DNA from: a virus
Virus record (IMG/VR): IMGVR_UViG_2509601008_000001
Length of the DNA: 33,868 bases
Direction: 5' to 3' (one strand)
Within the stretch, counting starts at the first letter, position 1. Each line of letters opens with the position of its first letter. The position numbers were made by a program, and so were the translations under genes. Below are positions 7,344 through 30,877 of this stretch, piece by piece. Under the pieces are notes generated by a model. That model worked only from the letters and a program-made list of their open reading frames with translations, ran no database searches and was not told where the DNA came from.

Positions 7344-7789
7344 CAAAATCCCACACTGCAAAACCTATCGTTTTTAAGTGGACACCTGCTCGCATAAAAG
7401 GGGCAAAACTAGCAGCGAGCACCACAATGACGCAAGAAGAGATCGCAAAAGAGTGCAGTGTTCACAGAATGACCGTTAATGAGTGGTTTCAGGCTCAAGA
7501 GTTCAAAGAAAAAGTTGCAGAGTTAATAATGCAGGATGAGCGGTTTACTAGGCCGGGGCTGCTAAAAATAACCGGGGCGATACTGGATAAAAAAATAGAA
7601 AGAGCAGCGGAGGATCGGTCTACAGCAGCAGACTATATCAAAATAGTAGCCGACATTGCCGGGATAAACAAAGCAGGTAATGAGATCAATATATACAATG
7701 CAGTAGGCGTAGTCAATACCCAGGAGGTGAAGGATGCAGTATCTAGGCTCTGCGAAAAGCTCAGGGAAGCAGACGACTCAACCGACTGA
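7340..7789 (+). CDS. terS: Terminase small subunit (HTH)
   Basis: MTQEEIAKEC.VHRMTVNEW....EF HTH directly upstream of TerL. Start may be 7328 or 7340. Confidence 0.8.
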   Translation: MTKSHTAKPIVFKWTPARIKGAKLAASTTMTQEEIAKECSVHRMTVNEWFQAQEFKEKVAELIMQDERFTRPGLLKITGAILDKKIERAAEDRSTAADYIKIVADIAGINKAGNEINIYNAVGVVNTQEVKDAVSRLCEKLREADDSTD

Positions 7790-10262
7790 GGACGAGCTGC
7801 AAGTGTGGGCTAGCGCTCCTGCAGCCTTTGCCCGGTACTGTAGCGGGGGGCGGTGGTATCCGGCTAAGCATCTAGTAGAGCTATCGCACCGGCTTATGGA
7901 TGTAGCTACCGGGGATATTACGCATCTCATGATATTCATGCCTCCAAGGCACGGCAAAAGTGAACTGACATCTAAGTACTTCCCTGCCTGGTACCTGGGG
8001 AAATACCCAGACAATAGGGTCATCCTCACAGGTTACGAGGCAGACTTTGCCGCTCAATGGGGGTACAAGGCTAGAAATATTATGCATGAGCACGGCCCTG
8101 CTCTATTCAATCTGACAGTAGCAGGCAACTCATCGGCTAGGGATAGATGGGATATAGCCGGTCATCTGGGCGGCATGAGTACAGCAGGAGTAGGGGGTGC
8201 CATCACTGGTAAGGGAGCGCATTGCTTATCGGGTGAAACACGGATACATACTAATTTCGGTATGCTGCGAATCGACGAGGTGGTGCAAAAAGCTAAATAC
8301 GATGAACGGTATAATAACAGGTTAAGGGTGCTAGCATATGACCACCGTAACCAAAGAGCAGTATGGAAAAGAGTTAAAGCTACACGGATTGTCCGAGATA
8401 GGCGACTGTTGGAAATCACCACAGCTAGTGGGGATAAAATCAGAGCTACCGATGAACATCGTTTTTTTGTGCACGAACGCGGATACACAGAAGCGAACCG
8501 TCTGTGTCAAGGAGACCGGTTTATATCGGTCAAAGAGCAGATCAAACAAAACGTGCGCCCAATGTGGAGAAGCGAAGGGTGGCCGGGGTGCACTGTGCAT
8601 GCCGTGTTACCAGAAGCTCAGGACAGTTCACGTAGTTCTGAAATGTTCGCTGTGTGGGGAGATATACGAAATCCCATTATACGATTACCGGAAAGCACTG
8701 GCAAGAAAACAGAAGGATTACTATTGTTCAGTGGCGTGTTCTCGGAAGCACCATGCCATAAAGAATGCAAAACGTTGTGTCGTGTGTGCAGCACCGATGC
8801 CAGGGAAACCGAGAAACATGTACTGTTCCACGGTATGTCGGGAAGCAGCGAGGCCACCGAAAAGGAAAGCGATATGTCCGGTTTGTGGGGATGCATTTTA
8901 CCCAATATCTCACCGGACCGCGCATTGTTCAAGACGTTGCGCCAATACCGCGCACTCAAAGAGAATGACGGGAGCTGGAAATTCTCACTACAAGACCGGG
9001 ACAAGTTATGCGAAGTGGTTCGACGAGATGAGGCCACTCGTGTTGGAGAGAGACGGACACCGGTGTGCCATATGTGGCAGCAATTACAATCTTCATATCC
9101 ACCATATAAACGAAAATGTTGTGGACAACACCCCGACAAACTTAATATCAATGTGCCCCACTTGCCACATCATCCACCACAAATCGAATGCGACACCGTA
9201 TCCTCAGTTACAAAAGTTAGCGGAAACGCGCACACGGTCTATGACATCCAAGTGGAAGACTGCAACAATTTCTTTGCTGAGAACATACTCGTCCATAACT
9301 GCCTGATAATTGATGACCCTATCAAGAACGCAGAAGAAGCCAACAGCAAGACCTATAGAGACAAATCATATGATTGGTACAGATCCACAGCATACACACG
9401 TATAGAGCCGGGTGGGTCTGTGGTCATTATCCAAACACGATGGCACGAGGACGACCTCTCAGGCAGACTCCTTAAGGAAGAGCCGGAAAAATGGACAGTA
9501 ATAAATCTCCCTGCACTGGCAGAGGAAGGAGGGGATCAGCTAGGCAGGCAACCAGGAGAGGCGCTATTCCCAAAACGGTATGATGTACATGCACTCCAGC
9601 AGATCAAAAGGACAGTCGGCACATATTGGTGGAATGCACTCTATCAACAGCGTCCGGCTGCCTCAGAGGGTGCTATATTCAAGCGGCAATATTTCCAGTA
9701 TTGCTATATCGAGGACGGGCTCTATGTGCTCAGAGACAAGCGGGTCAAGTACTACGACTGTACTATATATCAGACATGCGATCCTGCAGTCTCAACAAAG
9801 GCAAGCGCTGACTATTTTGTTCTAGCTACATGGGCTGTAACCCCAGACCAGGATCTTATTCTCCTGGACATCCTCAGAACCAGGCTAGAAGGGCCTGACC
9901 AAATCAATCTATTCAAACAGCAGTATGCTAGATGGAAACCAGCATACCAGGGCATAGAGGCGGTAGGTGTAGGCAAAACACTCTACCAAATGCTTGTGAG
10001 GGAGGGACTGCCTATCAGAGAGCTCAAAGCAGAGTCCGATAAAGTGACCAGGGCTCTTCCCGCAGCCGCTCGCATGGAGTCCGGCAGTGTCTATTTTATG
10101 CAGGATTTGCCAGGGCTAGACGAGTTTGAAGAAGAGCTCTTGTCATTCCCAAAAGGGAAACATGACGATCAGGTAGACTGTCTCTCTTATGCTGTGCAGC
10201 TAGCTCTGCAACAGTACCAGGACTTTGACCTTAGCATGCTCATCAAAACTTTTCCGAGGTAA
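7734..10262 (+). CDS. terL: Terminase large subunit containing an intein
   Basis: GGAGGTGA RBS. Walker A region MPPRHGKSE; Walker B GAH|CLIIDDP restored after splicing; IQTRWHEDDL; nuclease motif HDDQVD. About 483 aa after splicing. Confidence 0.97.
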   Translation: MQYLGSAKSSGKQTTQPTEDELQVWASAPAAFARYCSGGRWYPAKHLVELSHRLMDVATGDITHLMIFMPPRHGKSELTSKYFPAWYLGKYPDNRVILTGYEADFAAQWGYKARNIMHEHGPALFNLTVAGNSSARDRWDIAGHLGGMSTAGVGGAITGKGAHCLSGETRIHTNFGMLRIDEVVQKAKYDERYNNRLRVLAYDHRNQRAVWKRVKATRIVRDRRLLEITTASGDKIRATDEHRFFVHERGYTEANRLCQGDRFISVKEQIKQNVRPMWRSEGWPGCTVHAVLPEAQDSSRSSEMFAVWGDIRNPIIRLPESTGKKTEGLLLFSGVFSEAPCHKECKTLCRVCSTDARETEKHVLFHGMSGSSEATEKESDMSGLWGCILPNISPDRALFKTLRQYRALKENDGSWKFSLQDRDKLCEVVRRDEATRVGERRTPVCHMWQQLQSSYPPYKRKCCGQHPDKLNINVPHLPHHPPQIECDTVSSVTKVSGNAHTVYDIQVEDCNNFFAENILVHNCLIIDDPIKNAEEANSKTYRDKSYDWYRSTAYTRIEPGGSVVIIQTRWHEDDLSGRLLKEEPEKWTVINLPALAEEGGDQLGRQPGEALFPKRYDVHALQQIKRTVGTYWWNALYQQRPAASEGAIFKRQYFQYCYIEDGLYVLRDKRVKYYDCTIYQTCDPAVSTKASADYFVLATWAVTPDQDLILLDILRTRLEGPDQINLFKQQYARWKPAYQGIEAVGVGKTLYQMLVREGLPIRELKAESDKVTRALPAAARMESGSVYFMQDLPGLDEFEEELLSFPKGKHDDQVDCLSYAVQLALQQYQDFDLSMLIKTFPR
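8223..9299 (+). mobile_element. Intein, 359 aa (TerL residues 164-522), inserted just before Walker B
   Basis: Starts CLSGET (block A); TDEHRF (block B TxxH); VYDIQVEDCNNFFAENILVHN (blocks F/G); +1 residue is Cys. Confidence 0.96.
8338..9306 (+). CDS. HNH endonuclease with four Cys4 Zn fingers, nested in the +1 frame of the intein
   Basis: Four CxxC...CxxxC/CxxC fingers; GxGNxxYKxG motif; RDGHRCAICG...LHIHHINEN..DN.PTNLISMCPTCH. True start uncertain (8338 or 8452). Confidence 0.9.
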   Translation: MTTVTKEQYGKELKLHGLSEIGDCWKSPQLVGIKSELPMNIVFLCTNADTQKRTVCVKETGLYRSKSRSNKTCAQCGEAKGGRGALCMPCYQKLRTVHVVLKCSLCGEIYEIPLYDYRKALARKQKDYYCSVACSRKHHAIKNAKRCVVCAAPMPGKPRNMYCSTVCREAARPPKRKAICPVCGDAFYPISHRTAHCSRRCANTAHSKRMTGAGNSHYKTGTSYAKWFDEMRPLVLERDGHRCAICGSNYNLHIHHINENVVDNTPTNLISMCPTCHIIHHKSNATPYPQLQKLAETRTRSMTSKWKTATISLLRTYSSITA

Positions 10263-12150: not shown

Positions 12151-12444
12151 ATGTACGTAATACCGGATACAGACTACACGATTAATGCTTCTGCTAAAAC
12201 AATAACGCTAGCGGCAGCATACGCTACTCTAAGCGCAGGACAGATTACAAAAATTAAGGATATCACTACAGAAGAGATCCTCTATGATTCGGAAAGGGTC
12301 TCGTTTACGGGGCCACAGATCTCGGTTGCTACGGGAGTAATCACCTACACGCAAGGAAACAAAGTGGCCAATACCGATAAGCTGCGCATAGTAGTTGATG
12401 CTAATTACTCAGATATATATCACCTCGATGGAGGGAGCGCATAA
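12151..12444 (+). CDS. Virion beta-rich accessory protein ending in DGGSA
   Basis: YTINASAKTITL...I.DIT..EILY resembles the N-terminal module of phage fibre proteins. Confidence 0.65.
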   Translation: MYVIPDTDYTINASAKTITLAAAYATLSAGQITKIKDITTEEILYDSERVSFTGPQISVATGVITYTQGNKVANTDKLRIVVDANYSDIYHLDGGSA

Positions 12445-13802
12445 TGCCACGTAATCAATTAATACAGATCAGACGGGACACGACAGCAAACTGGACGAAC
12501 ACTAATCCAATCCCTGCAGAGGGGGAGCTCTGCCTGGACACAAATACCGGATACCTGAAAGTAGGGGACGGGTCATCTAATTATGTAGATCTACCTATCT
12601 TCACCCATGGCGCATCTATCACTGAGGCAATAGGCATAGAGTGGGATACCAGCAGCACAAGCCCAACGCTCAAGAGGATCGACATCAATGGTAACGAGCG
12701 CTCTACTGTAGACGCTACATATTTCGATAATCACTCTATCTGGGGAAATATAAAAAGATGCACTATAAACCCAGCTATCGGACTCCCTGTCTACGGCACT
12801 AATGCAAGAGGTGACGGGCTAGATCTAACAGGCGCATCAGGAAACGTGATGGTTAAGATCCCCAAATTCTATGTGAAGTTCAGCACGGACGGAACTTATC
12901 ATAGATGGTGGATTAGTCCTGTTGCCCTCGCTGGTTTCGAGTTACATCCAGCTTTTCTTCAGAGGGGCGGTACAGAAGCAGAGCTTTTTGTTTCGGCATA
13001 TGAAGCGGCAGGGTTCCTGGATGGGGCGACATTCAAACTCACGTCCGCTACAGGACTGCAACCAGTGACGGGTGATGTCTCCTACCCCAATTTGCCGAAC
13101 TCGGGCCGTCTGTACATTATGGACGCCGGCACCTATGCAAATAACATAGGAACTGGCTACGGCATCATGAATATATGGACATGGTCTGCAATCCGGCTAT
13201 TGGTGCTCACTGAACTGGGTACGCTCAACTCACAGGCCGCGTTAGGCAGGGGAATCGTAGATCTTGCATTGGGTACGGGATACGCGGGTCTGCTCACGGG
13301 TGCATTGTCAGCCGATACCAATGTTGCGACAAACGGTTCTGGAATGGGAACGGGAACAAACGGAGCAACTCCCGTTGTATGGCGCGGCATAGAGAATATT
13401 TGGGGCAATACTCTAAGTTTCGTGATCGGAGTAACCTTTTTTGATACCGTTCACTGGGTGCTGAAACCAGACGGGACAGGAGTAGTGGCTGCACCGCTTA
13501 CCACTGGGAACTACGTAGAATCAGCATCAGTGCCGCCCAATACCACGAGTGGATATATCTCAAGAGTGTTCGTGGACAGCGCGCTGAAATATATGATGCT
13601 GGGGTCTGCTGTCGCGGGATCCTCAAGCACCTATGCATGTGATCTGTACACCGTACGCGAAACATCCGCAACAGGTACACACGGACAATGCAGCGGTGCG
13701 TGGGGTGCAGGAGATGGAGCCGGAATAAATTATCAACGTAGCGCGATATACGGCCATTTATCCAGACAAGTAGGGGCAAGGATCGAATTTTTGAAGAGGT
13801 GA
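12444..13802 (+). CDS. Adhesin/fibre: Mtd_N-like N-terminus plus C-type-lectin/FGE-like C-terminal domain
   Basis: IQIRRDTTANWT..NPIPAEGELCLDT.TG.LKVGDG (Mtd_N-like); VMVKIPKFY, HPAF, WRGIENIWGN, and terminal GAW..G..AG...GARI. Confidence 0.8.
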   Translation: MPRNQLIQIRRDTTANWTNTNPIPAEGELCLDTNTGYLKVGDGSSNYVDLPIFTHGASITEAIGIEWDTSSTSPTLKRIDINGNERSTVDATYFDNHSIWGNIKRCTINPAIGLPVYGTNARGDGLDLTGASGNVMVKIPKFYVKFSTDGTYHRWWISPVALAGFELHPAFLQRGGTEAELFVSAYEAAGFLDGATFKLTSATGLQPVTGDVSYPNLPNSGRLYIMDAGTYANNIGTGYGIMNIWTWSAIRLLVLTELGTLNSQAALGRGIVDLALGTGYAGLLTGALSADTNVATNGSGMGTGTNGATPVVWRGIENIWGNTLSFVIGVTFFDTVHWVLKPDGTGVVAAPLTTGNYVESASVPPNTTSGYISRVFVDSALKYMMLGSAVAGSSSTYACDLYTVRETSATGTHGQCSGAWGAGDGAGINYQRSAIYGHLSRQVGARIEFLKR

Positions 13803-24200: not shown

Positions 24201-25245
24201 CCGAACCACATCAACAACTATCTGGAATAGTATACAGACCTCTGTCTCTAACTCACTGAACAATATAAGAACTACTGCAAGCAACATATGGAACTCCATA
24301 CTGTCTACTATTACAGCTGCACTCAACAACATTAGAACAACGTCTGTCAACGCTTGGAACTCAATTCAGAGCTCCGTAACAGCATCACTGAATAATATTA
24401 GAGCCACTGCTCAGAATATATGGAACTCTATTCACAGTACAATCACCTCAGTACTGAATGGCATCAGAGCAACCTCACAGAGTATATGGGCATCTATACA
24501 GTCTGCTATCTCAAGTGCAATGAACAACATCCGGGCAACTATCGCCAGTGCTTGGAGCAGCATAGCAAGCGGTGTTAGTTCCGGCTGGGCTTCTATCAGA
24601 TCTCGGATACAGGCAGAGATCAATACAATTATATCTGCTATATCCAATGCAGGGAGCAGGTTCTATAGTGCTGCTGCTAGCTGGGTACAGAGCATGGTAG
24701 ACGGACTCACTTCTAGAATATCCTCACTGAGGTCAGCGGTGAACTCGGTACTGTCGTTAGTGTCGACTGGCAACTCTGCCAATATATCAACCTCCTCTAC
24801 TTCAAATATCAGGACAGGCGGCACTTCATCGGGTGGCACAGGGTCGGCTAGAATCACCTCCCTCCCTTCCTACACCGGCGGCAGAACAGCACTATCTGGT
24901 ACGCCTACCACAGTAGGATACAATCCCCTTGAAAAACACGACACTGGCGGCATAGCGGGGTACACTGGCTGGCATTGGATGGAGAAGAACGAATTAGCCA
25001 TCCCCCAAGCGACTAATTGGGATGCTATCCTTATCAATCCTATCAGCAATGCATTAGCTAAAGCAGCTAGCATTACAGCAGGCAGAGGACTAGGCTCTGG
25101 ACCAGGATCAGGTAACGTCACCTATGAGGGCGACACAATATATATCACTGCTAACATGTCTAACGAGTATGGGTTTGATGAGATGATGGATGACATCAAC
25201 AGACGGACAACTAGGGACAGGTTTAGGAGAGGGATCAAATCATGA
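21226..25245 (+). CDS. Tape measure protein (TP901 family), 1339 aa
   Basis: FD.AM..V.A...A..MG..T.FS..QAAEAM..L..AG core; WW..NG repeats; 11-aa Trp-anchored repeats at about 23900-24600. Confidence 0.97.
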   Translation: MSGVLETLSVNVVGEISDVTNAFNQLDQRVAGFGRSMQTMGSQLQGMGTSMSLAVTAPLMAIGGLGLKTAVDFDDAMRQVQAVTGSTGDSLDILRDAALRMGADTAFSSSQAAEAMLQLGQAGFSTDEILSSTEQVLSLASAGALDLGTAAGITANALMGFGMEADQTQRVVDLLAIGASISTTDVQGLGLALSYVAPVANAMGMSIEETTSLIAGLSNAGIEGERAGTALRGAIERLAVPTDEAAGVLHGYGIELDMVNPATTSFTEILEVLAKAGMSAADVMAVFGVNSGPGVLALLGQGTPAIEAQTAALTESAGAAKTMADTMEGGAGGAIRQLQGSIETLQITIGDLIADALLPWIDRATELFNQLSSLPTPLLQNIIMIAGLAAAIGPALIAFGTLIKSTGTIITLFSGLPILFGPVGLALAGIATAAAIVYTNWDRVGPWLVQQFENLRGVALALLERVQSLVRDGFEYISNWWSANGRAVLDALIAAFQRTVAFITPVYEAVRNLVLNALTLISAWWTQNGSGVMETLRAAFDRIQAAAIPLITTIRDLVERALTGISTWWTGNGNGVMNALNAAFTWIIDTGSQLIAVVLDLANRGLIAISNWWSANGNTVMTALNTAFTWLITTGSDLIDTVWDLATRGFTAISNWWSANGESTLNTLWQKINDLYDAIEPLIPIVVEFVRDGLEKISAWWTANGQDTLDAIQKLTDAAEWLFDNVLIPAINTLQIILPPIIDSIKSWWDTLGDALEFIVDLINGDWADAWENIQASVSEAYEDIKNIWGTGALAEVIGVVWDAVGLDTSTAWDDIETDITDTWDDIKEALTDKDGTFRTSVVTFWKLIRGDIKTEADGIGTDANTSFSGLSTTVSTHMSGISASVSTAWNSIRQSISERLTAIRADTSTAWTNIQTSVSTSLNSIRVTVSNAWNTMRTDITTALNSIRTTVGTAWSAIQTNVSTALNSIRTTSTTIWNNIQTSITTSLNSIRTTSTTIWNSIQTSVSNSLNNIRTTASNIWNSILSTITAALNNIRTTSVNAWNSIQSSVTASLNNIRATAQNIWNSIHSTITSVLNGIRATSQSIWASIQSAISSAMNNIRATIASAWSSIASGVSSGWASIRSRIQAEINTIISAISNAGSRFYSAAASWVQSMVDGLTSRISSLRSAVNSVLSLVSTGNSANISTSSTSNIRTGGTSSGGTGSARITSLPSYTGGRTALSGTPTTVGYNPLEKHDTGGIAGYTGWHWMEKNELAIPQATNWDAILINPISNALAKAASITAGRGLGSGPGSGNVTYEGDTIYITANMSNEYGFDEMMDDINRRTTRDRFRRGIKS

Positions 25246-25646
25246 GTACAGGCGACTATCTTGACGTAGTGTTTGATTCTCTAAGGATCTCTGCTCTTTC
25301 TGAGCCTGAAATAGTTGACGATTTCTCTTACAACGAAACCAGACTAGCATCAGGAGAGACGTTTATACAGACCTCTAGTACTCCGAGGTTCTCAAAAACA
25401 TATAGGTGTCTAACAGAGGATGATGTAGAGCGGGATGCAATCAGACTCAAGCGGGGCAAATTCGCAGATCTTGTAATTGATGGCATAACCTATAGCGGCT
25501 GCTGTATCAAGCCCCCCATTAGGTTCAAGTATACCCGTGTTCCTGGGCGGTGGGAATACGATATCACTTTTGTACAACATACTGGCACTCTACCCGTACC
25601 TGTAGCGGATGAACTCCCAGCCCTAATAGATGGAGGCAGCGCATGA
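25242..25646 (+). CDS. Distal tail (Dit-like) protein with C-terminal DGGSA extension
   Basis: Follows TMP. WEYDITFVQ, then LPVPVADELPALIDGGSA. Confidence 0.65.
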   Translation: MSTGDYLDVVFDSLRISALSEPEIVDDFSYNETRLASGETFIQTSSTPRFSKTYRCLTEDDVERDAIRLKRGKFADLVIDGITYSGCCIKPPIRFKYTRVPGRWEYDITFVQHTGTLPVPVADELPALIDGGSA

Positions 25647-26149: not shown

Positions 26150-28459
26150 ATGGCTTATCCAGGCTGGAAGTATAAAGGGCATGTGACTTTTGCAGATACA
26201 GCAAAAGCTAAAGAGGTGCAGGCGCTTGTATACATTTATTACCAGACTGGGATGAATTCTGATTTTAGTGACCTCCGTTTTGCTGCAACAGACGGTACTC
26301 CACTGCCGTATTATTTTGACTATGCTACGGCTGGATCAGTGGCAAGAGTTTGGGTCAGAGTTCCAGCCGGACAGACAACAATCAATTTCTATTATGGGAA
26401 TGCTGCAGCTACATCAGAATCAAGCGGAGCCAACACATTCTTCATATTCGATGAATTCAATGATGCGAACTGGGCGGACAACTGGTCCGGCGATACTGCC
26501 TCGTGGACTGCATCGGGCAGCCTGCTCAAGTGCAGCACGTCCGGCAAGAAAATCTATAGAGCGGTATCCGGTGGACTCGATGACAAGGCTATCTATGCAA
26601 GCATAGTCACAAAAGCTAATACTAATTTGAAATTTGGTATAGTGTTCAGGGCTTCCTGGGGAGAAGTCCAATTTACCAGGTCTTATACTTCCTCCTATCC
26701 TCGCAGATGGTCGGATGGTACGTATGTGTCCGGCTCATCTCCTCTATGGTCTGACAATACAGCAGCAGTGGACAGAGTAGATATATTCAGTACAAAAGCT
26801 GCCACTAAATATTATGTGGGAAATACTTCCTGGACAGCAATTACAGGCCCAAATACCCATACTGCTATGCTGTCTGCTGCTGGCCAATTTGGTTTATACG
26901 CCTATGCTCCCAATACGTACCAATACGTACGGTGGGTCAGGGTGCAGTCCTCTGCTACACTACTGAACTATACTGTGACAGTAGACGGTGCGAACAAAGA
27001 GGACATTATAGAATCGTTCAGCCTGCACATCACTCCGTCCCACGGGTTCACCGGGAAACACTATGCAACCCGGGCAGTAACAATTATACCCGAGGTGACT
27101 CCATACGAGACAGGGCTAGTGCTGTCTCCTACTGCGGAAATCAAGGACTACCTGACAGCGTCCACGGGGATCACTGTAACCCCTTCAACAGTAGCAGTCA
27201 ATGACTCTCTCTATGCCTCAACTGATGTTTACGTTACTCCTGCTGCCGATCCATTGATAGAGGGCATGGACCTGGATCAGTATCCCTGGACTGCTCTTAC
27301 TGTCCGCAAATCTATAGCAGATGCGATGTGGCAAATGGATATCAAATTTGAGGGGCATACTGTACCACCTACTCAGCGTAGGATATTCTACGATGTGCTA
27401 GACATATACGGGGACGTCAACCGGATATTTGCAGGTATCATACCTGAACCAGATTATGTAATATCGGACGCAGCAAATAAAACAAGTGTAGTTGCTTACG
27501 ATTATGCGTATTATCTGAGCAGGCAGCTAGTCCCATACGATGAAACCACGATCAAGCTAGTCACTGCGTATCCTACCTGGGGGGATTGGATAGAGCATCT
27601 CCTAGAGGGCACAGGGATCACAGCGTATAGGATAGCGGCAGGGCCTACCACTACAGCAGAGTTTTCCCTTACTCCCAAAACAACCAAGATGCAGGCCATC
27701 AAAAAGATAGCGGACTATCTAGGCTATCTATTCCTAGTCTCCTGGGATGGGGACGATGCTATAGCATATTTCATAGACCCAGCTAACATAGATGAGCCTA
27801 CTGCAGGGCTTGATCTTCCTGCTCAATACGATGTGTACCACACAGACGGGACGCTTGTAGGCATCCCCTCTGCAAAACCAGTGTCTGAGAAAACGTACAA
27901 TAGAATAATCGTTAGGGGCAGAGACCCTGTAAACAATGTGTACCTGACCTCAGTAGCAGAGACAGACAGGCTGACAGGAGGCTATGAGTACGCAAGAGAG
28001 TATTACGAGGAGTCACTGAACTACACTACTCAGGCTATCTGCGATACTCGGGCAGCTTTCCTGCTTGCTGGGCTGTCTACTGAATTGTATACGGTCAGAG
28101 CAACATTCAAGCTTAGGCATGATTTTAGGTTATGGCAAAAAATAAGGTTCCTCGGTGATGGTTTTCCGGCCGCTGTAACCAATATGGGAGTAATGAGGAT
28201 AGTCAACATCTCGCACTCAATCCAGGAAGCAGACTCCACGGTCACTATAGAGTGTACGGTAGATCAGGATATCTCTCTTATCTCTGAACTTGCAGATGTG
28301 TTCGATTCAAACACAGTATCCGAAACAGTAGGAATAGTAGACAATAAATTCTCTACTCAGGCAGAGATCCAAGCAGGCACTATAACAGCCATTAACGGCA
28401 CTACTGCTACGGTATTACTTGAGAACGGAAATACAATACAAGCGAGGCTGCTAGAATGA
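26150..28459 (+). CDS. DUF2341 plus lectin-like domain fused to a baseplate hub (Tal/gp27-like) domain
   Basis: DFSDLRF..DG..LPYY...VWVRVP...YYGN..A.S.S....F.FDEF (DUF2341); C-terminal YNRIIVRG hub-like region. Confidence 0.75.
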   Translation: MAYPGWKYKGHVTFADTAKAKEVQALVYIYYQTGMNSDFSDLRFAATDGTPLPYYFDYATAGSVARVWVRVPAGQTTINFYYGNAAATSESSGANTFFIFDEFNDANWADNWSGDTASWTASGSLLKCSTSGKKIYRAVSGGLDDKAIYASIVTKANTNLKFGIVFRASWGEVQFTRSYTSSYPRRWSDGTYVSGSSPLWSDNTAAVDRVDIFSTKAATKYYVGNTSWTAITGPNTHTAMLSAAGQFGLYAYAPNTYQYVRWVRVQSSATLLNYTVTVDGANKEDIIESFSLHITPSHGFTGKHYATRAVTIIPEVTPYETGLVLSPTAEIKDYLTASTGITVTPSTVAVNDSLYASTDVYVTPAADPLIEGMDLDQYPWTALTVRKSIADAMWQMDIKFEGHTVPPTQRRIFYDVLDIYGDVNRIFAGIIPEPDYVISDAANKTSVVAYDYAYYLSRQLVPYDETTIKLVTAYPTWGDWIEHLLEGTGITAYRIAAGPTTTAEFSLTPKTTKMQAIKKIADYLGYLFLVSWDGDDAIAYFIDPANIDEPTAGLDLPAQYDVYHTDGTLVGIPSAKPVSEKTYNRIIVRGRDPVNNVYLTSVAETDRLTGGYEYAREYYEESLNYTTQAICDTRAAFLLAGLSTELYTVRATFKLRHDFRLWQKIRFLGDGFPAAVTNMGVMRIVNISHSIQEADSTVTIECTVDQDISLISELADVFDSNTVSETVGIVDNKFSTQAEIQAGTITAINGTTATVLLENGNTIQARLLE

Positions 28460-29166
28460 CTTACAATGTAGGAGACAGGGGGCTAGTTGTCACTACTCGC
28501 TCAATGGGTTCAGAGTTCATTAAGAACAATGCTACTGCTGCTGTTGATGACCGGGTATTAATATATCCAATTCAAGGCAAAGCTATTCCTGTAGCAATCC
28601 CTGCAACAGCAAGCGAGGCAACAGACCGAGTATATACTGTTCCTCTGGGGAATGGTAGAGGCTGGGCTGTACAGCAACCACAACCCAAATTCACTATTGA
28701 AGATCCCGAGGTTCCTTCTTCTACTACGGTAGTAGAATTTGATATCAGGATAGATGAGTACCCAGGGGCTACGTATTGGGGCTATGAGCTGTTCAGCAGG
28801 GCAACCTCTGGCACTAATATAGTTTGGATGTTTGGGTTCTCTGGCATAGGGTCTGATACGTATCCTTACAGGCTCAAGGTGATGGCTACCCAGGGAGGAG
28901 TATTCAAATACGTATGTGATGCCTCAAAACAGCTATACATAGGAACCACATATCATATCATATGGACAGCATCAGGAGGCATGTCTGGGATGACAAGAAA
29001 CGGACTACCTCAGGGGGTCCCTTATCCCTGCGTTCTGGAGTACGGCCTGACTACACAGCTCAATTATCCCGATACCGTAGTAGGTACGGGACTGGCACAC
29101 GGTACGCATCAGGCATTCGGCTCTACAAAAGGACTGATTTCAAACATCACAATCACTAATTCGTGA
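28456..29166 (+). CDS. Minor tail protein
   Basis: ATGA-coupled, beta-rich, late tail position. Confidence 0.6.
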   Translation: MTYNVGDRGLVVTTRSMGSEFIKNNATAAVDDRVLIYPIQGKAIPVAIPATASEATDRVYTVPLGNGRGWAVQQPQPKFTIEDPEVPSSTTVVEFDIRIDEYPGATYWGYELFSRATSGTNIVWMFGFSGIGSDTYPYRLKVMATQGGVFKYVCDASKQLYIGTTYHIIWTASGGMSGMTRNGLPQGVPYPCVLEYGLTTQLNYPDTVVGTGLAHGTHQAFGSTKGLISNITITNS

Positions 29167-29176
29167 GGACACAACA

Positions 29177-30877
29177 ATGGCGACAACAGTATCAAGCAGC
29201 GCAGAACTTATAGCAGCCCTTGCAAGGGGCGGCACTATCGAGATAGAACCAGGTACGTACTCTATCAGAAGAGCAGCTATAGCAAAATCAGATACAGCAC
29301 TGGTAGCAGCAGACCAAACAAAGAAGCCAGTGCTGCAAATGGCAGCCAGTCATCCGTCTGCTCCTATGCTCTCTGGGTACAATGTAGACGGAGTAGAGTT
29401 TGAGGATCTTATCTTAGACGGGAATTTCTCCAAACAGCCAGGGGCAATTAGAGGCAGGTCTGAGCTGGCGCTGTGCTGGCTAAGGAATAGTGATGACGTA
29501 TCTATGCAAAACTGCCTGCTCCGTAATGGTGCAAGCGATGGGCTGAAACTTACAACCAGCGATGGGGCAAAGATCCTCAACAATACCGTAGCTCATCTGG
29601 GTCACGATGCTTTCTATTTCATGTATGGGTGTGATAATGGAGTCTATGCAGGCAACAACGTAATGACCAGAACCAACTCGGGCGGCCGCTGGTCTTACGG
29701 TGCAGCAGGTTGGGATATTCACGATAATGAGATATGGTCTGAGATAGAGCCCTGGAGCACAGGGCCGGGCCTTGAGTTCGACAAGCGGATGTTCGTGAAG
29801 ATGAAGATTCACGGCAATAACTTCCACACGCTCAACGGCTCAGGCATCTGGCTATTAGGGGATATAGCAAGCTGTGATAAGGTATCTATCTACGAAAATA
29901 CTTTTGATTTTGTGGGCAGGTACTACAACAATGATCTCAAATACAATGGCTACAGCAATGCAGGAATAGCAGGAGCAGGTTTTGATGGAGTAGAAATAAG
30001 GGACAACATGTTCAAAAACTTGATGTACTGTATAGAGATGTCTGAAGCTCTGTACCCAATCTCGGGTAATTACAGATGGAATTTCAATAATAATACTGTC
30101 AGTAATTGCCGCTATGGGTTTAGGATAGATCAGGCAAGAGGTTCGATCAGAGGCTCAGGAAACAAACTTACGGGTATAACCACATACTCGCATAATCTGA
30201 AAGGAACGCTCAACCTAGTGGCTCCTACGAGCCCAGTAGAGAACGCTGAGCCGATTGATTCAGGAGAAGTAATACAAACCATCCTCTCAGTTGTGGACTC
30301 TGCTGGGAAAATAGGAACTCAAACTATCGATATCAAGACTTCTGCTGTAGCTCCTCGCAATAGTACTCTATCCTTAGCTACTGTCAAACTGTCCGTAGAT
30401 GGAAGGTACGGTACAAGGAACGTAGAGTTTCTTGTATCTACAGCTTCCCCAGAAACGAAGCTACAGACAGCCGTCACCGGAACAGATCTATTGGTCTCAC
30501 TGACACTCAAAAGAAAAGCGTCAAGCGGGTCAGTACAATTCCTCCTGCCTACACTTGAAGCATCTGCAGGATACAACGAGCTCAAAATCAGGACGGCAGA
30601 CGGACGATATGGAGAAGCGAAACTTAATATAGTGTTAGCTGAACCTCCTACACCAGAGCCGGAACCTGAGCCAGCGATAGAGCCTACTCCAGTAGAGAAC
30701 AATATACACTTTACGTTAAGCGTAGATACCAGGAACCAGCGGCTCTATGTCAATGAAAAAGTAGGTACTTCTAAAATAAAAACAGAAGGGGATGGCATAA
30801 CCGGGTATCTCAAACTCAGAACGGCTGATAATTATTATATTGAGATACCCATATCGGGAACGATGGTAAAGGGGTAA
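29177..30877 (+). CDS. Right-handed parallel beta-helix protein (pectate-lyase fold; disaggregatase-like depolymerase candidate)
   Basis: PbH1-type repeats (I..N ladders); DGLK...NNTVAHLGHDAFY...TRTNSG...GPGL...GSGIWL; C-terminal beta modules and a PEPEPEP linker. Confidence 0.8.
   Translation: MATTVSSSAELIAALARGGTIEIEPGTYSIRRAAIAKSDTALVAADQTKKPVLQMAASHPSAPMLSGYNVDGVEFEDLILDGNFSKQPGAIRGRSELALCWLRNSDDVSMQNCLLRNGASDGLKLTTSDGAKILNNTVAHLGHDAFYFMYGCDNGVYAGNNVMTRTNSGGRWSYGAAGWDIHDNEIWSEIEPWSTGPGLEFDKRMFVKMKIHGNNFHTLNGSGIWLLGDIASCDKVSIYENTFDFVGRYYNNDLKYNGYSNAGIAGAGFDGVEIRDNMFKNLMYCIEMSEALYPISGNYRWNFNNNTVSNCRYGFRIDQARGSIRGSGNKLTGITTYSHNLKGTLNLVAPTSPVENAEPIDSGEVIQTILSVVDSAGKIGTQTIDIKTSAVAPRNSTLSLATVKLSVDGRYGTRNVEFLVSTASPETKLQTAVTGTDLLVSLTLKRKASSGSVQFLLPTLEASAGYNELKIRTADGRYGEAKLNIVLAEPPTPEPEPEPAIEPTPVENNIHFTLSVDTRNQRLYVNEKVGTSKIKTEGDGITGYLKLRTADNYYIEIPISGTMVKG

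What the first reader, a model, noticed from the sequence alone, without database searches (positions are those of the whole stretch)
29177..30877. Virus-encoded beta-helix enzyme resembling Methanosarcina disaggregatase
Seen in sequence: a parallel beta-helix with the motif series LDGN, DGLK, NNTVAHLGHDAFY, TRTNSG, HDNEI, GPGL, GSGIWL and AGIAGAGF. From memory, this series matches the beta-helix domain of Methanosarcina disaggregatase-related proteins. Established knowledge: disaggregatase degrades the methanochondroitin matrix that holds Methanosarcina aggregates together. Inference: a captured host enzyme used as a tailspike depolymerase or release factor. It is the last late gene, has no signal peptide, and no pseudomurein endopeptidase is present. 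It would also support the host assignment.
Basis: inference. Interest (0 to 1): 0.72.

Follow-up and report, generated by a model that had tools for sequence, protein, structure and literature searches.

The report
Virus-borne disaggregatase-type beta-helix enzyme
A virus integrated in a methane-producing archaeon encodes, at the end of its tail genes, a signal-less relative of the enzyme family its host uses to dissolve its own sugar coat; it is probably how the virus cuts through or escapes that coat, which has not been described for archaeal viruses.

Summary
Window 29177-30877 (+) is a 566-aa ORF holding all eight motifs. It folds as an N-terminal right-handed beta-helix (residues 1-347), an Ig-like sandwich, a Pro/Glu linker and a small C-terminal beta domain.

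The resemblance to disaggregatase is real. The host is a methanogen, apparently Methanomethylovorans, not Methanosarcina. It has eight secreted paralogues built as beta-helix/PF08480 + PKD + PF06848. They match residues 18-281 at 29-35% identity (E down to 9e-35) and share 47 of the viral family's near-invariant residues.

It is not a recent capture. The protein sits in a well-supported clade of leaderless proteins (SH-aLRT 97). Every member examined lies in a tailed-virus structural module, and two still carry genuine Disaggr_repeat domains. The host's own paralogues fall in the other clade.

Here the gene closes a conserved tail-tip cassette (Gp80-like, DUF2341, LamG-like lectin, beta-helix) and is its most divergent member.

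Best reading: a surface-glycan depolymerase carried on the tail tip. It has no N-terminal anchor, and trimerisation and virion presence are untested, so a soluble enzyme released at lysis remains a strong rival.

The scan has noted similar enzymes in Methanosarcina viruses on other DNA. I found no publication.

The parts
29177..30877 (+). 566-aa leaderless beta-helix protein (P0001), virus-lineage member of the disaggregatase-type beta-helix family
29177..30217 (+). Right-handed parallel beta-helix, residues 1-347, with N-terminal capping helix 8-17. Carries the family-invariant residues D81 G82 N83 Q87 D121 G122 G142 H143 Y147 T164-S168 R171 N184 S188 S194-P197 E200 D202 K203 W225 Y259.
   Evidence: model pLDDT mostly above 90; VIA-align AlgE4 Z 34.7, rmsd 2.3 A over 318 residues; residues shared with host paralogues
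30269..30622 (+). Ig-like beta-sandwich, residues 365-482. It stands where the cellular paralogues have PKD and Disaggr_repeat domains.
   Evidence: only generic Ig-like matches, best Z 4.7
30635..30697 (+). Pro/Glu-rich flexible linker, residues 487-507
   Evidence: sequence; pLDDT below 50 at 493-507
30698..30862 (+). Small C-terminal beta domain, residues 508-562. Present in only some clade members and shuffled independently of the tail cassette.
28456..29166 (+). 236-aa LamG/concanavalin-A-like (lectin-fold) partner directly upstream. It is 71-76% identical in the two related viruses.
   Evidence: Atlas feature score 0.95-0.96 and TM 0.56-0.62 to Laminin_G_3 proteins; conservation
26150..28459 (+). 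769-aa DUF2341 tail-tip protein
   Evidence: Pfam PF10102 7.3e-19; 62% identical in L038 and L051
25765..26136 (+). 123-aa Gp80-like fibre or baseplate tail-fibre-network protein
   Evidence: Pfam PF23140 3.7e-09; PHROG tail fibre / virion structural hits
25242..25646 (+). 134-aa tail-tip protein, homologous to the C-terminal half of the 267/269-aa proteins that follow the tape measure in L038 and L051
21226..25245 (+). Tape measure protein, marking the start of the tail-tip module
   Evidence: PhageMin_Tail 4e-44; phrog_1272 5e-120

Best explanation
The gene encodes a leaderless, virus-lineage member of the disaggregatase-type right-handed beta-helix family (CASH/NosD-like fold). Shown: it is homologous to the beta-helix of the host's eight secreted disaggregatase-related surface proteins, and it keeps the same set of invariant polar residues, spaced about one rung apart. 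Inferred: those residues line a substrate groove, and the protein binds and cleaves an extracellular host glycan. The likely target is a uronic-acid-containing matrix of the methanochondroitin type, or an S-layer or surface glycan. Inferred: it is made late with the tail-tip genes (Gp80-like fibre protein, DUF2341 protein, LamG-like lectin partner) and rides on the virion tail tip as a tailspike-like depolymerase that clears a path to the cell surface. Excess free protein released at lysis would also loosen the matrix for progeny. Because it has no signal peptide, it can reach its substrate only on a virion or after the cell is opened.
For: Homology: BLASTP to the eight host paralogues over residues 18-281, 29-35% identity, E 4e-23 to 9e-35. 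Those paralogues are PF13229 + PF08480 + PKD + PF06848, and seven of the eight have hydrophobic N-termini. 47 of the viral family's near-invariant residues are also fixed in the host paralogues. Clade relatives at 43-48% identity pass Pfam's PF08480 cut-off. Enzyme-like fold: AlgE4/AlgE6 epimerase A-modules Z 34.7 (the only PDB sequence-profile hit, E 0.0034), phi29 gp12 Z 33.4, polygalacturonases, the biofilm lyase RbmB Z 31.2, and the HK620, Dettilon and CBA120 tailspikes. Viral lineage: a leaderless clade of 27 rows with SH-aLRT 97. All members examined lie in tailed-virus structural modules. Tail context: it is the last gene of a cassette conserved in L038 and L051, and the most divergent member (48%/37% identity against 62-76% for its neighbours), as expected for a host-recognition protein. 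The 123-aa neighbour hits fibre/baseplate families. The partner has a lectin fold. In L052 the gene follows baseplate genes. No holin-like membrane ORF lies beside the gene.
Against: There is no N-terminal virion-binding domain; the beta-helix starts at residue 1. The C-terminal modules are swapped among viruses that share the same tail cassette, and P0038 lacks the sandwich altogether, which argues against a conserved C-terminal anchor. In other viruses the gene sits between MuF and the scaffold gene, upstream of the terminase, or between terminase and portal. The best structural match, AlgE4, is to my knowledge a monomeric secreted enzyme. Trimerisation and virion presence could not be tested. 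No catalytic residue has been defined for any member of the family, and the AlgE catalytic motif is not recovered in a weak alignment. Whether Methanomethylovorans makes methanochondroitin is unknown to me. The two UDP-sugar dehydrogenase genes in the host are not discriminating.
Confidence: 0.45

Rival explanations
1. Soluble exit or dispersal enzyme. The same depolymerase chemistry applies, but the protein is not part of the virion. It accumulates in the cytoplasm late in infection and is freed when the membrane and S-layer are breached. It then dissolves the extracellular matrix that would trap progeny inside host aggregates, as a functional analogue of an endolysin or of the cell's own disaggregatase.
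For: It has no signal peptide and no N-terminal anchor. It occupies the position that a lysis cassette takes after the tail genes in many siphoviruses (established knowledge). Its position varies among other viruses, including outside tail modules. Its C-terminal modules behave like exchangeable binding modules. The nearest folds include monomeric secreted matrix enzymes, AlgE4 and RbmB. Reviews report that M. mazei forms methanochondroitin-sheathed aggregates when challenged by MetSV (PMC13437554), so a matrix barrier to virus spread exists in this family.
Against: No holin-like or other membrane protein gene is adjacent. The gene is tightly embedded in a conserved tail-tip cassette, and it evolves faster than its neighbours, as a receptor-recognition protein would. 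Ig-like domains in tailed viruses are typically on structural proteins (established knowledge).
Confidence: 0.3
2. Non-catalytic receptor-binding protein or adhesin. The beta-helix only binds a surface glycan, as in PfbA-like adhesins or the NosD-like viral 'adhesion' proteins proposed for ANME enrichments, and serves as a tail fibre without cleaving anything.
For: The adhesin PfbA is among the good structural matches, Z 30.8. A 2026 paper proposes adhesion roles for viral NosD-like beta-helices (PMC13452462). No catalytic residues are defined for the family. The AlgE catalytic motif is not conserved in a weak alignment.
Against: A dense set of invariant charged and polar residues (D81, D121, H143, R165, R171, E200, D202, K203) is strictly conserved between viral and cellular branches at about 30% overall identity. 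That is more typical of an active site than of a binding face that tracks variable glycans. The family is named after an enzyme with demonstrated matrix-dissolving activity (PMC12369344).
Confidence: 0.15
3. A host gene recently picked up by the provirus, or a cellular gene at the provirus edge, acting for the lysogen in cell-surface remodelling rather than for the virus.
For: It lies near the integrase-proximal end of the element, and the host has eight paralogues.
Against: It groups with viral proteins, not with host paralogues. It is only 29-35% identical to the host paralogues. It lacks a secretion signal. The same gene sits in the same cassette in two related viruses. No viral-type copy was found in 150 related genomes.
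Confidence: 0.03

Closest known systems
Methanosarcina mazei disaggregatase and the cellular 'disaggregatase-related' proteins (Pfam PF08480 Disaggr_assoc + PF06848 Disaggr_repeat)
   Same: The beta-helix is homologous (E to 9e-35 against eight such proteins of the host), with the same invariant residue set. Clade relatives pass the PF08480 threshold, and two viral relatives keep PF06848/CBM96. The presumed substrate class is the extracellular matrix polysaccharide of Methanosarcinaceae.
   Different: It has no secretion signal, no PKD and no Disaggr_repeat. The query itself falls below PF08480 detection. It is virus-encoded, in a separate clade, with its own Ig-like C-terminal modules. The host is Methanomethylovorans-like, whose matrix chemistry is unknown to me.
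Phage tailspike or capsule depolymerases (CBA120 TSP2, HK620/Sf6/P22-type tailspikes, phi29 gp12, Klebsiella phage depolymerases)
   Same: Right-handed beta-helix fold (Foldseek E 5e-9; VIA Z 29-33). The gene lies at the distal end of the tail module and is the fastest-evolving member of the cassette.
   Different: There is no detectable sequence similarity: no tblastn hit in 50,697 deposited phage genomes. There is no N-terminal anchor domain. The trimer state is untested. The host is archaeal.
AlgE4/AlgE6 mannuronan C5-epimerase A-modules and alginate epimerase/lyases (CASH/NosD-type beta-helices acting on polyuronates)
   Same: They are the best structural match over the whole beta-helix (Z 34.7, rmsd 2.3 A, 318 residues) and the only PDB sequence-profile hit. 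The LDGN rung aligns. Both act, or are presumed to act, on uronic-acid polymers.
   Different: Identity is 16%. The YG(F/I)DPH(D/E) catalytic motif is not recovered in the weak alignment. No Ca-binding R-modules are present.
Viral NosD-like beta-helix proteins from anaerobic alkane-oxidising enrichments (PMC13452462)
   Same: They are virus-encoded NosD/CASH-type beta-helices in archaea-rich anoxic communities. The same three hypotheses (attachment, lysis, adhesion) were raised.
   Different: That paper draws no link to the disaggregatase family or to Methanosarcinaceae proviruses. Sequence relatedness to this protein was not tested here.
Pseudomurein endoisopeptidases PeiW/PeiP/PeiR of Methanobacteriales viruses
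   Same: They are the only characterised envelope-degrading enzymes of methanogen viruses, and they are also leaderless (PMC10791045).
   Different: The fold, chemistry (cysteine peptidase) and substrate are unrelated. No PF12386 match was found in this genome (the control was uninformative).

Membership tests
Disaggregatase-related proteins (PF08480/PF06848) | Beta-helix homologous to that of PF08480-bearing proteins | tested here: met
   BLASTP E 4e-23 to 9e-35 against eight host PF08480 proteins over residues 18-281; 47 shared near-invariant residues
Disaggregatase-related proteins (PF08480/PF06848) | Direct match to Pfam PF08480 (Disaggr_assoc) above the gathering score | tested here: not met
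   No PF08480 hit for P0001 even at E<=10. Homologues P0007, P0010, P0013, P0021 and P0029 (41-48% identical) do pass, at 28.7-40.4 bits against a 22.6-bit cut-off.
Disaggregatase-related proteins (PF08480/PF06848) | Disaggr_repeat (PF06848) module(s) | tested here: not met
   Absent from P0001. Present in the viral clade members P0042 and P0043.
Disaggregatase-related proteins (PF08480/PF06848) | Secretion signal / extracellular location | tested here: not met
   No hydrophobic N-terminal segment (maximum KD 0.9), against 1.2-2.4 in seven of the eight host paralogues
Disaggregatase-related proteins (PF08480/PF06848) | Dissolves methanochondroitin or cell aggregates | not testable with these tools
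   Needs a biochemical assay
Phage tailspike depolymerase | Right-handed parallel beta-helix with a carbohydrate-enzyme-like groove | tested here: met
Phage tailspike depolymerase | Encoded in the tail or baseplate module | tested here: met
   It is the last gene after TMP, the Gp80-like protein, DUF2341 and LamG. The position differs in other viruses.
Phage tailspike depolymerase | N-terminal particle-binding (anchor) domain | tested here: not met
   The beta-helix cap starts at residues 2-20
Phage tailspike depolymerase | Homotrimer | not testable with these tools
Phage tailspike depolymerase | Present in the virion | not testable with these tools
   Needs virion proteomics
AlgE-type mannuronan C5-epimerase A-module / CASH-NosD beta-helix | Fold and NosD/CASH-type repeats | tested here: met
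   Pfam NosD 40.1 bits against a 23.6-bit cut-off; VIA Z 34.7
AlgE-type mannuronan C5-epimerase A-module / CASH-NosD beta-helix | Catalytic YG(F/I)DPH(D/E) motif | tested here: inconclusive
   A weak profile alignment (domain E 16) places D121-G-L-K-L-T on that rung. No structural superposition of side chains was possible.
NosD (N2O reductase maturation) | Full-length match to TIGR04247 | tested here: not met
   23.5 bits against a 300-bit cut-off

The most novel reading that the evidence does not exclude
Tailed viruses of Methanosarcinaceae carry their own ancient, monophyletic lineage of leaderless disaggregatase-type depolymerases. The genes move between head, tail and packaging modules, and some keep Disaggr_repeat/CBM96 modules. 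On this reading these would be the first polysaccharide-matrix depolymerases of archaeal viruses. They would be the viral answer to the aggregate/methanochondroitin defence seen against MetSV, and possibly the evolutionary source of, or a reservoir for, the cellular disaggregatases.
Probability: 0.4. Interest if true: 0.7.

Novelty: new variant of a known kind. Interest (0 to 1): 0.55.

Why it matters
How archaeal viruses cross or leave the archaeal cell envelope is largely unknown (review PMC10791045). For methanogens, the only known virus envelope enzymes are the pseudomurein peptidases of Methanobacteriales viruses. A virus-borne lineage of the disaggregatase family gives a concrete, testable candidate for entry or exit through the polysaccharide matrix of Methanosarcinaceae. 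These organisms dominate many digesters and sediments and aggregate in response to virus attack. The enzyme could also serve as a tool to disperse aggregates of methanogens that are hard to handle genetically. It would also help define the catalytic residues of a family that has no solved structure or defined mechanism.

Tried and rejected
- The primary disaggregatase papers (Xun 1990; Osumi 2008) are not held. Statements about the enzyme rest on the review PMC12369344.
- phmmer of the protein against PDB sequences found nothing.
- The family profile found only AlgE4, weakly.
- The C-terminal 217 residues gave no usable Atlas feature hit and only low-TM structural rows (<=0.31), and only generic Ig-like matches at Z <= 4.7. 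No specific fold or anchor function could be assigned.
- tblastn against 50,697 deposited phage and archaeal-virus genomes found no match.
- Megablast of the second replicon against PLSDB found no match, so the host could not be named that way.
- The PF12386 (PeiW-type) search found nothing, but the controls did not ring, so it is uninformative.
- UDP-sugar dehydrogenase genes are present in the host but also in 13 of 14 controls, so they say nothing about methanochondroitin.
- NosD proper was rejected.
- Recent capture from this host was rejected.

Full report
**1. Observation**

Window 29177-30877 (+) is an ATG-initiated ORF of 566 codons. Pfam gives Beta_helix (PF13229, 1.5e-14) and NosD (PF05048, 3.6e-10), both above their cut-offs. 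It gives no hit to the two disaggregatase families PF08480 and PF06848, even at E<=10. NCBIfam rejects true NosD (23.5 bits against a 300-bit cut-off).

An AlphaFold2 model built on a 30-sequence alignment has mean pLDDT 83.6. It shows:
- a right-handed beta-helix, residues 1-347, mostly above pLDDT 90
- a beta-sandwich, residues 365-482
- a Pro/Glu linker
- a small beta domain, residues 508-562

The protein has no hydrophobic leader. A minus-strand ORF ends 5 bp after its stop codon, so it is the last gene of the plus-strand late block.

**2. Context**

The window is a siphovirus-like provirus. Its genes include RecT, a large terminase with an intein, portal, an Mtd_N fibre-like gene, MuF, an HK97-type capsid protein, tail completion proteins and a tape measure. 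After these come a 134-aa protein, a 123-aa Gp80-like fibre/baseplate-network protein, a 769-aa DUF2341 protein, a 236-aa protein and the beta-helix. Minus-strand small genes and an integrase follow. The 236-aa neighbour has a LamG/concanavalin-A-like lectin fold.

The provirus lies at C1:1194285-1228152 of a 2.71-Mb, 99.99%-complete genome with mcrA, so the host is a methanogen. The genome has two replicons, of 2,428,904 and 285,109 bp. From memory, these sizes match Methanomethylovorans hollandica DSM 15978 and its plasmid pMETHO01. The tool evidence is that the nearest named cellular homologues come almost entirely from Methanomethylovorans MAGs. The host is therefore in the Methanosarcinaceae but is not Methanosarcina.

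**3. Relation to disaggregatase**

The host genome holds eight PF08480 genes. Each has Beta_helix + Disaggr_assoc, and most add PKD domains and one to three Disaggr_repeat copies. Seven of the eight have hydrophobic N-termini; the eighth (host6) shows none from its first ATG. All eight hit residues 18-281 of the provirus protein at 29-35% identity, with E from 4e-23 to 9e-35.

In a joint alignment, 47 of the positions that are at least 95% conserved in the viral family are also fixed in the host paralogues. They include D81-G-N, Q87, D121-G, G142-H143, Y147, T164-R-T-N-S168, R171, N184, S188, S194-T-G-P197, E200, D202-K203, W225 and Y259. Their spacing of about 22 residues places them on successive rungs, which I infer to be a substrate groove.

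Viral homologues at 41-48% identity pass Pfam's PF08480 cut-off over residues ~206-340. The query has simply drifted below detection in that stretch.

According to the review PMC12369344, disaggregatase activity has been shown only for M. mazei. There it cleaves methanochondroitin and disperses aggregates.

**4. A virus lineage, not a recent capture**

A word-indexed search found 31 relatives besides the query itself, most of 420-700 aa. An exhaustive profile search of 1.84 billion representatives found 625 at E<=1e-3. There is a clear break in that list. About 16 top representatives have the beta-helix starting at residue 1. Hundreds of lower-scoring proteins have it behind a leader or inside a multidomain protein.

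In a maximum-likelihood tree of the beta-helix domain (98 rows), 26 leaderless proteins plus one N-terminal fragment form one clade with SH-aLRT 97. The host's paralogues lie in the other half of the tree. The root is a midpoint root only, so the direction of transfer is unresolved.

Every member of the leaderless clade whose context I fetched is in a tailed-virus structural region:
- L038 and L051 share the window's cassette: TMP ... 123 aa, DUF2341, ~220 aa, beta-helix, strand switch.
- In L035, L036 and L037 (two of them IMG/VR contigs) the gene lies between MuF and the scaffold/capsid genes.
- In L047-L049 it lies just upstream of the terminase, and it still carries genuine PF06848/CBM96 modules.
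- In L050 it lies between terminase/dUTPase and a putative portal.
- In L052 it follows baseplate genes.

No viral-type copy (E<=1e-40) was found in 150 other genomes from 16 genera of the host's family. By contrast, the cellular PF08480 family is present in 10 of 10 other genomes of the host's genus and in 6 of the 16 genera. No deposited phage or archaeal-virus genome has a tblastn match.

**5. Fold comparison**

By Foldseek, the best matches are the CBA120 TSP2 tailspike (5e-9) and the AlgE6/AlgE4 epimerase A-modules. By VIA-align the order is:

| Match | Z | Notes |
|---|---|---|
| AlgE4/AlgE6 A-modules | 34.7 | rmsd 2.3 A over 318 residues |
| phi29 gp12 | 33.4 | |
| Polygalacturonases | ~31 | |
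| RbmB, Vibrio biofilm lyase | 31.2 | |
| PfbA, adhesin | 30.8 | |
| HK620, Sf6 and Dettilon tailspikes | 29.5-30.5 | |

These scores are close, so the fold says "carbohydrate-active beta-helix" rather than naming a family. AlgE4 is nevertheless the only PDB sequence-profile hit (E 0.0034). That alignment superposes the LDGN rung, but not the AlgE catalytic YGFDPHE motif.

The C-terminal part, modelled alone (pLDDT 72), gives only generic Ig-like matches at Z <= 4.7.

**6. Mechanism**

The family-level claim is well supported: this is a virus-borne, leaderless disaggregatase-type beta-helix with its groove residues intact. How the protein reaches its substrate is less certain.

Evidence for a virion-borne, tailspike-like role:
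- It closes a tail-tip cassette that is conserved in three viruses.
- It is by far the most divergent member of that cassette: 48%/37% identity, against 67%, 62% and 71-76% for the neighbours.
- Fibre/baseplate-type and lectin-fold neighbours flank it.
- No membrane-protein gene is adjacent.

Evidence against, which favours a soluble enzyme released at lysis:
- It has no N-terminal anchor.
- The C-terminal modules shuffle independently of the tail cassette.
- The gene's position varies in other viruses.
- The top structural match is a monomeric enzyme.

I put the virion-borne depolymerase at 0.45, the soluble exit enzyme at 0.30, a non-catalytic adhesin at 0.15, and a recent host capture or lysogen function at 0.03.

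**7. Literature and earlier scan notes**

None of the 15 held papers that mention disaggregatase appears, from its title and abstract, to link it to a virus; I opened only one of them. Reviews state that how archaeal viruses breach the envelope is largely unknown. They also state that M. mazei aggregates with a methanochondroitin sheath when challenged by MetSV. A 2026 paper discusses viral NosD-like beta-helices in ANME enrichments and raises the same three hypotheses.

This scan has already noted disaggregatase-like beta-helix genes in several Methanosarcina viruses on other DNA. Some of these have lectin-like partners, and some sit in candidate lysis cassettes. Those are unchecked AI notes. 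I used them only as a lead to test the 236-aa partner, which turned out to have a lectin fold.

**8. Verdict**

This is a new variant of a known kind: the virus-encoded beta-helix depolymerase, here in an archaeal virus and drawn from the disaggregatase family. It belongs to a recurrent viral lineage rather than being a one-off capture.

Noticed in passing
L047:700-12949, L048, L049: Related viral contigs encode a leaderless beta-helix + Disaggr_repeat/CBM96 protein just upstream of the terminase. Right after the capsid genes they also carry a run of three glycosyltransferase genes (GT4, GT4, GT2 + methyltransferase), so these viruses hold both glycan-cutting and glycan-building genes.
   Followed up: partly
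window 12444-13802 and L037:15004-16656: The Mtd_N-headed fibre-like gene and the beta-helix gene swap places between virus groups. In the window the Mtd_N gene sits in the head module (between portal and MuF) and the beta-helix at the tail end. In L035-L037 the beta-helix sits in the head module (MuF to scaffold) and the Mtd_N gene lies after the capsid gene.
   Followed up: partly
window 7734-10262: The large terminase is interrupted by an intein (Intein_splicing 1.9e-14 between the Terminase_6N and 6C halves). Another agent of this scan has already followed this up.
   Followed up: no
L020 (JAUVAV010000004.1, candidate division FCPU426 bacterium MAG): One bacterial MAG carries a cellular-type homologue (34% identity over residues 25-281) among otherwise Methanosarcinales hits. 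This could be cross-domain transfer or a binning artefact.
   Followed up: no
G063:C36:80425-81003 (genome of the same family): A 976-aa PF08480 open frame in a relative's genome contains one in-frame TAG. It could be a pyrrolysine/read-through codon or a pseudogene. An earlier scan note reports amber read-through in a viral disaggregatase-like gene.
   Followed up: no
G000:C2:279472-281871 (L044): One of the eight host disaggregatase-type paralogues lies on the 285-kb second replicon. Its 800-codon open frame has its first ATG only at codon ~164, so it probably uses a non-ATG start or is 5'-truncated.
   Followed up: no
window 28456-28459: The start of the LamG-like 236-aa gene overlaps the DUF2341 stop codon (ATGA-type overlap), suggesting translational coupling within the tail-tip cassette. 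In L038 a DNA methyltransferase gene is inserted between the two.
   Followed up: partly
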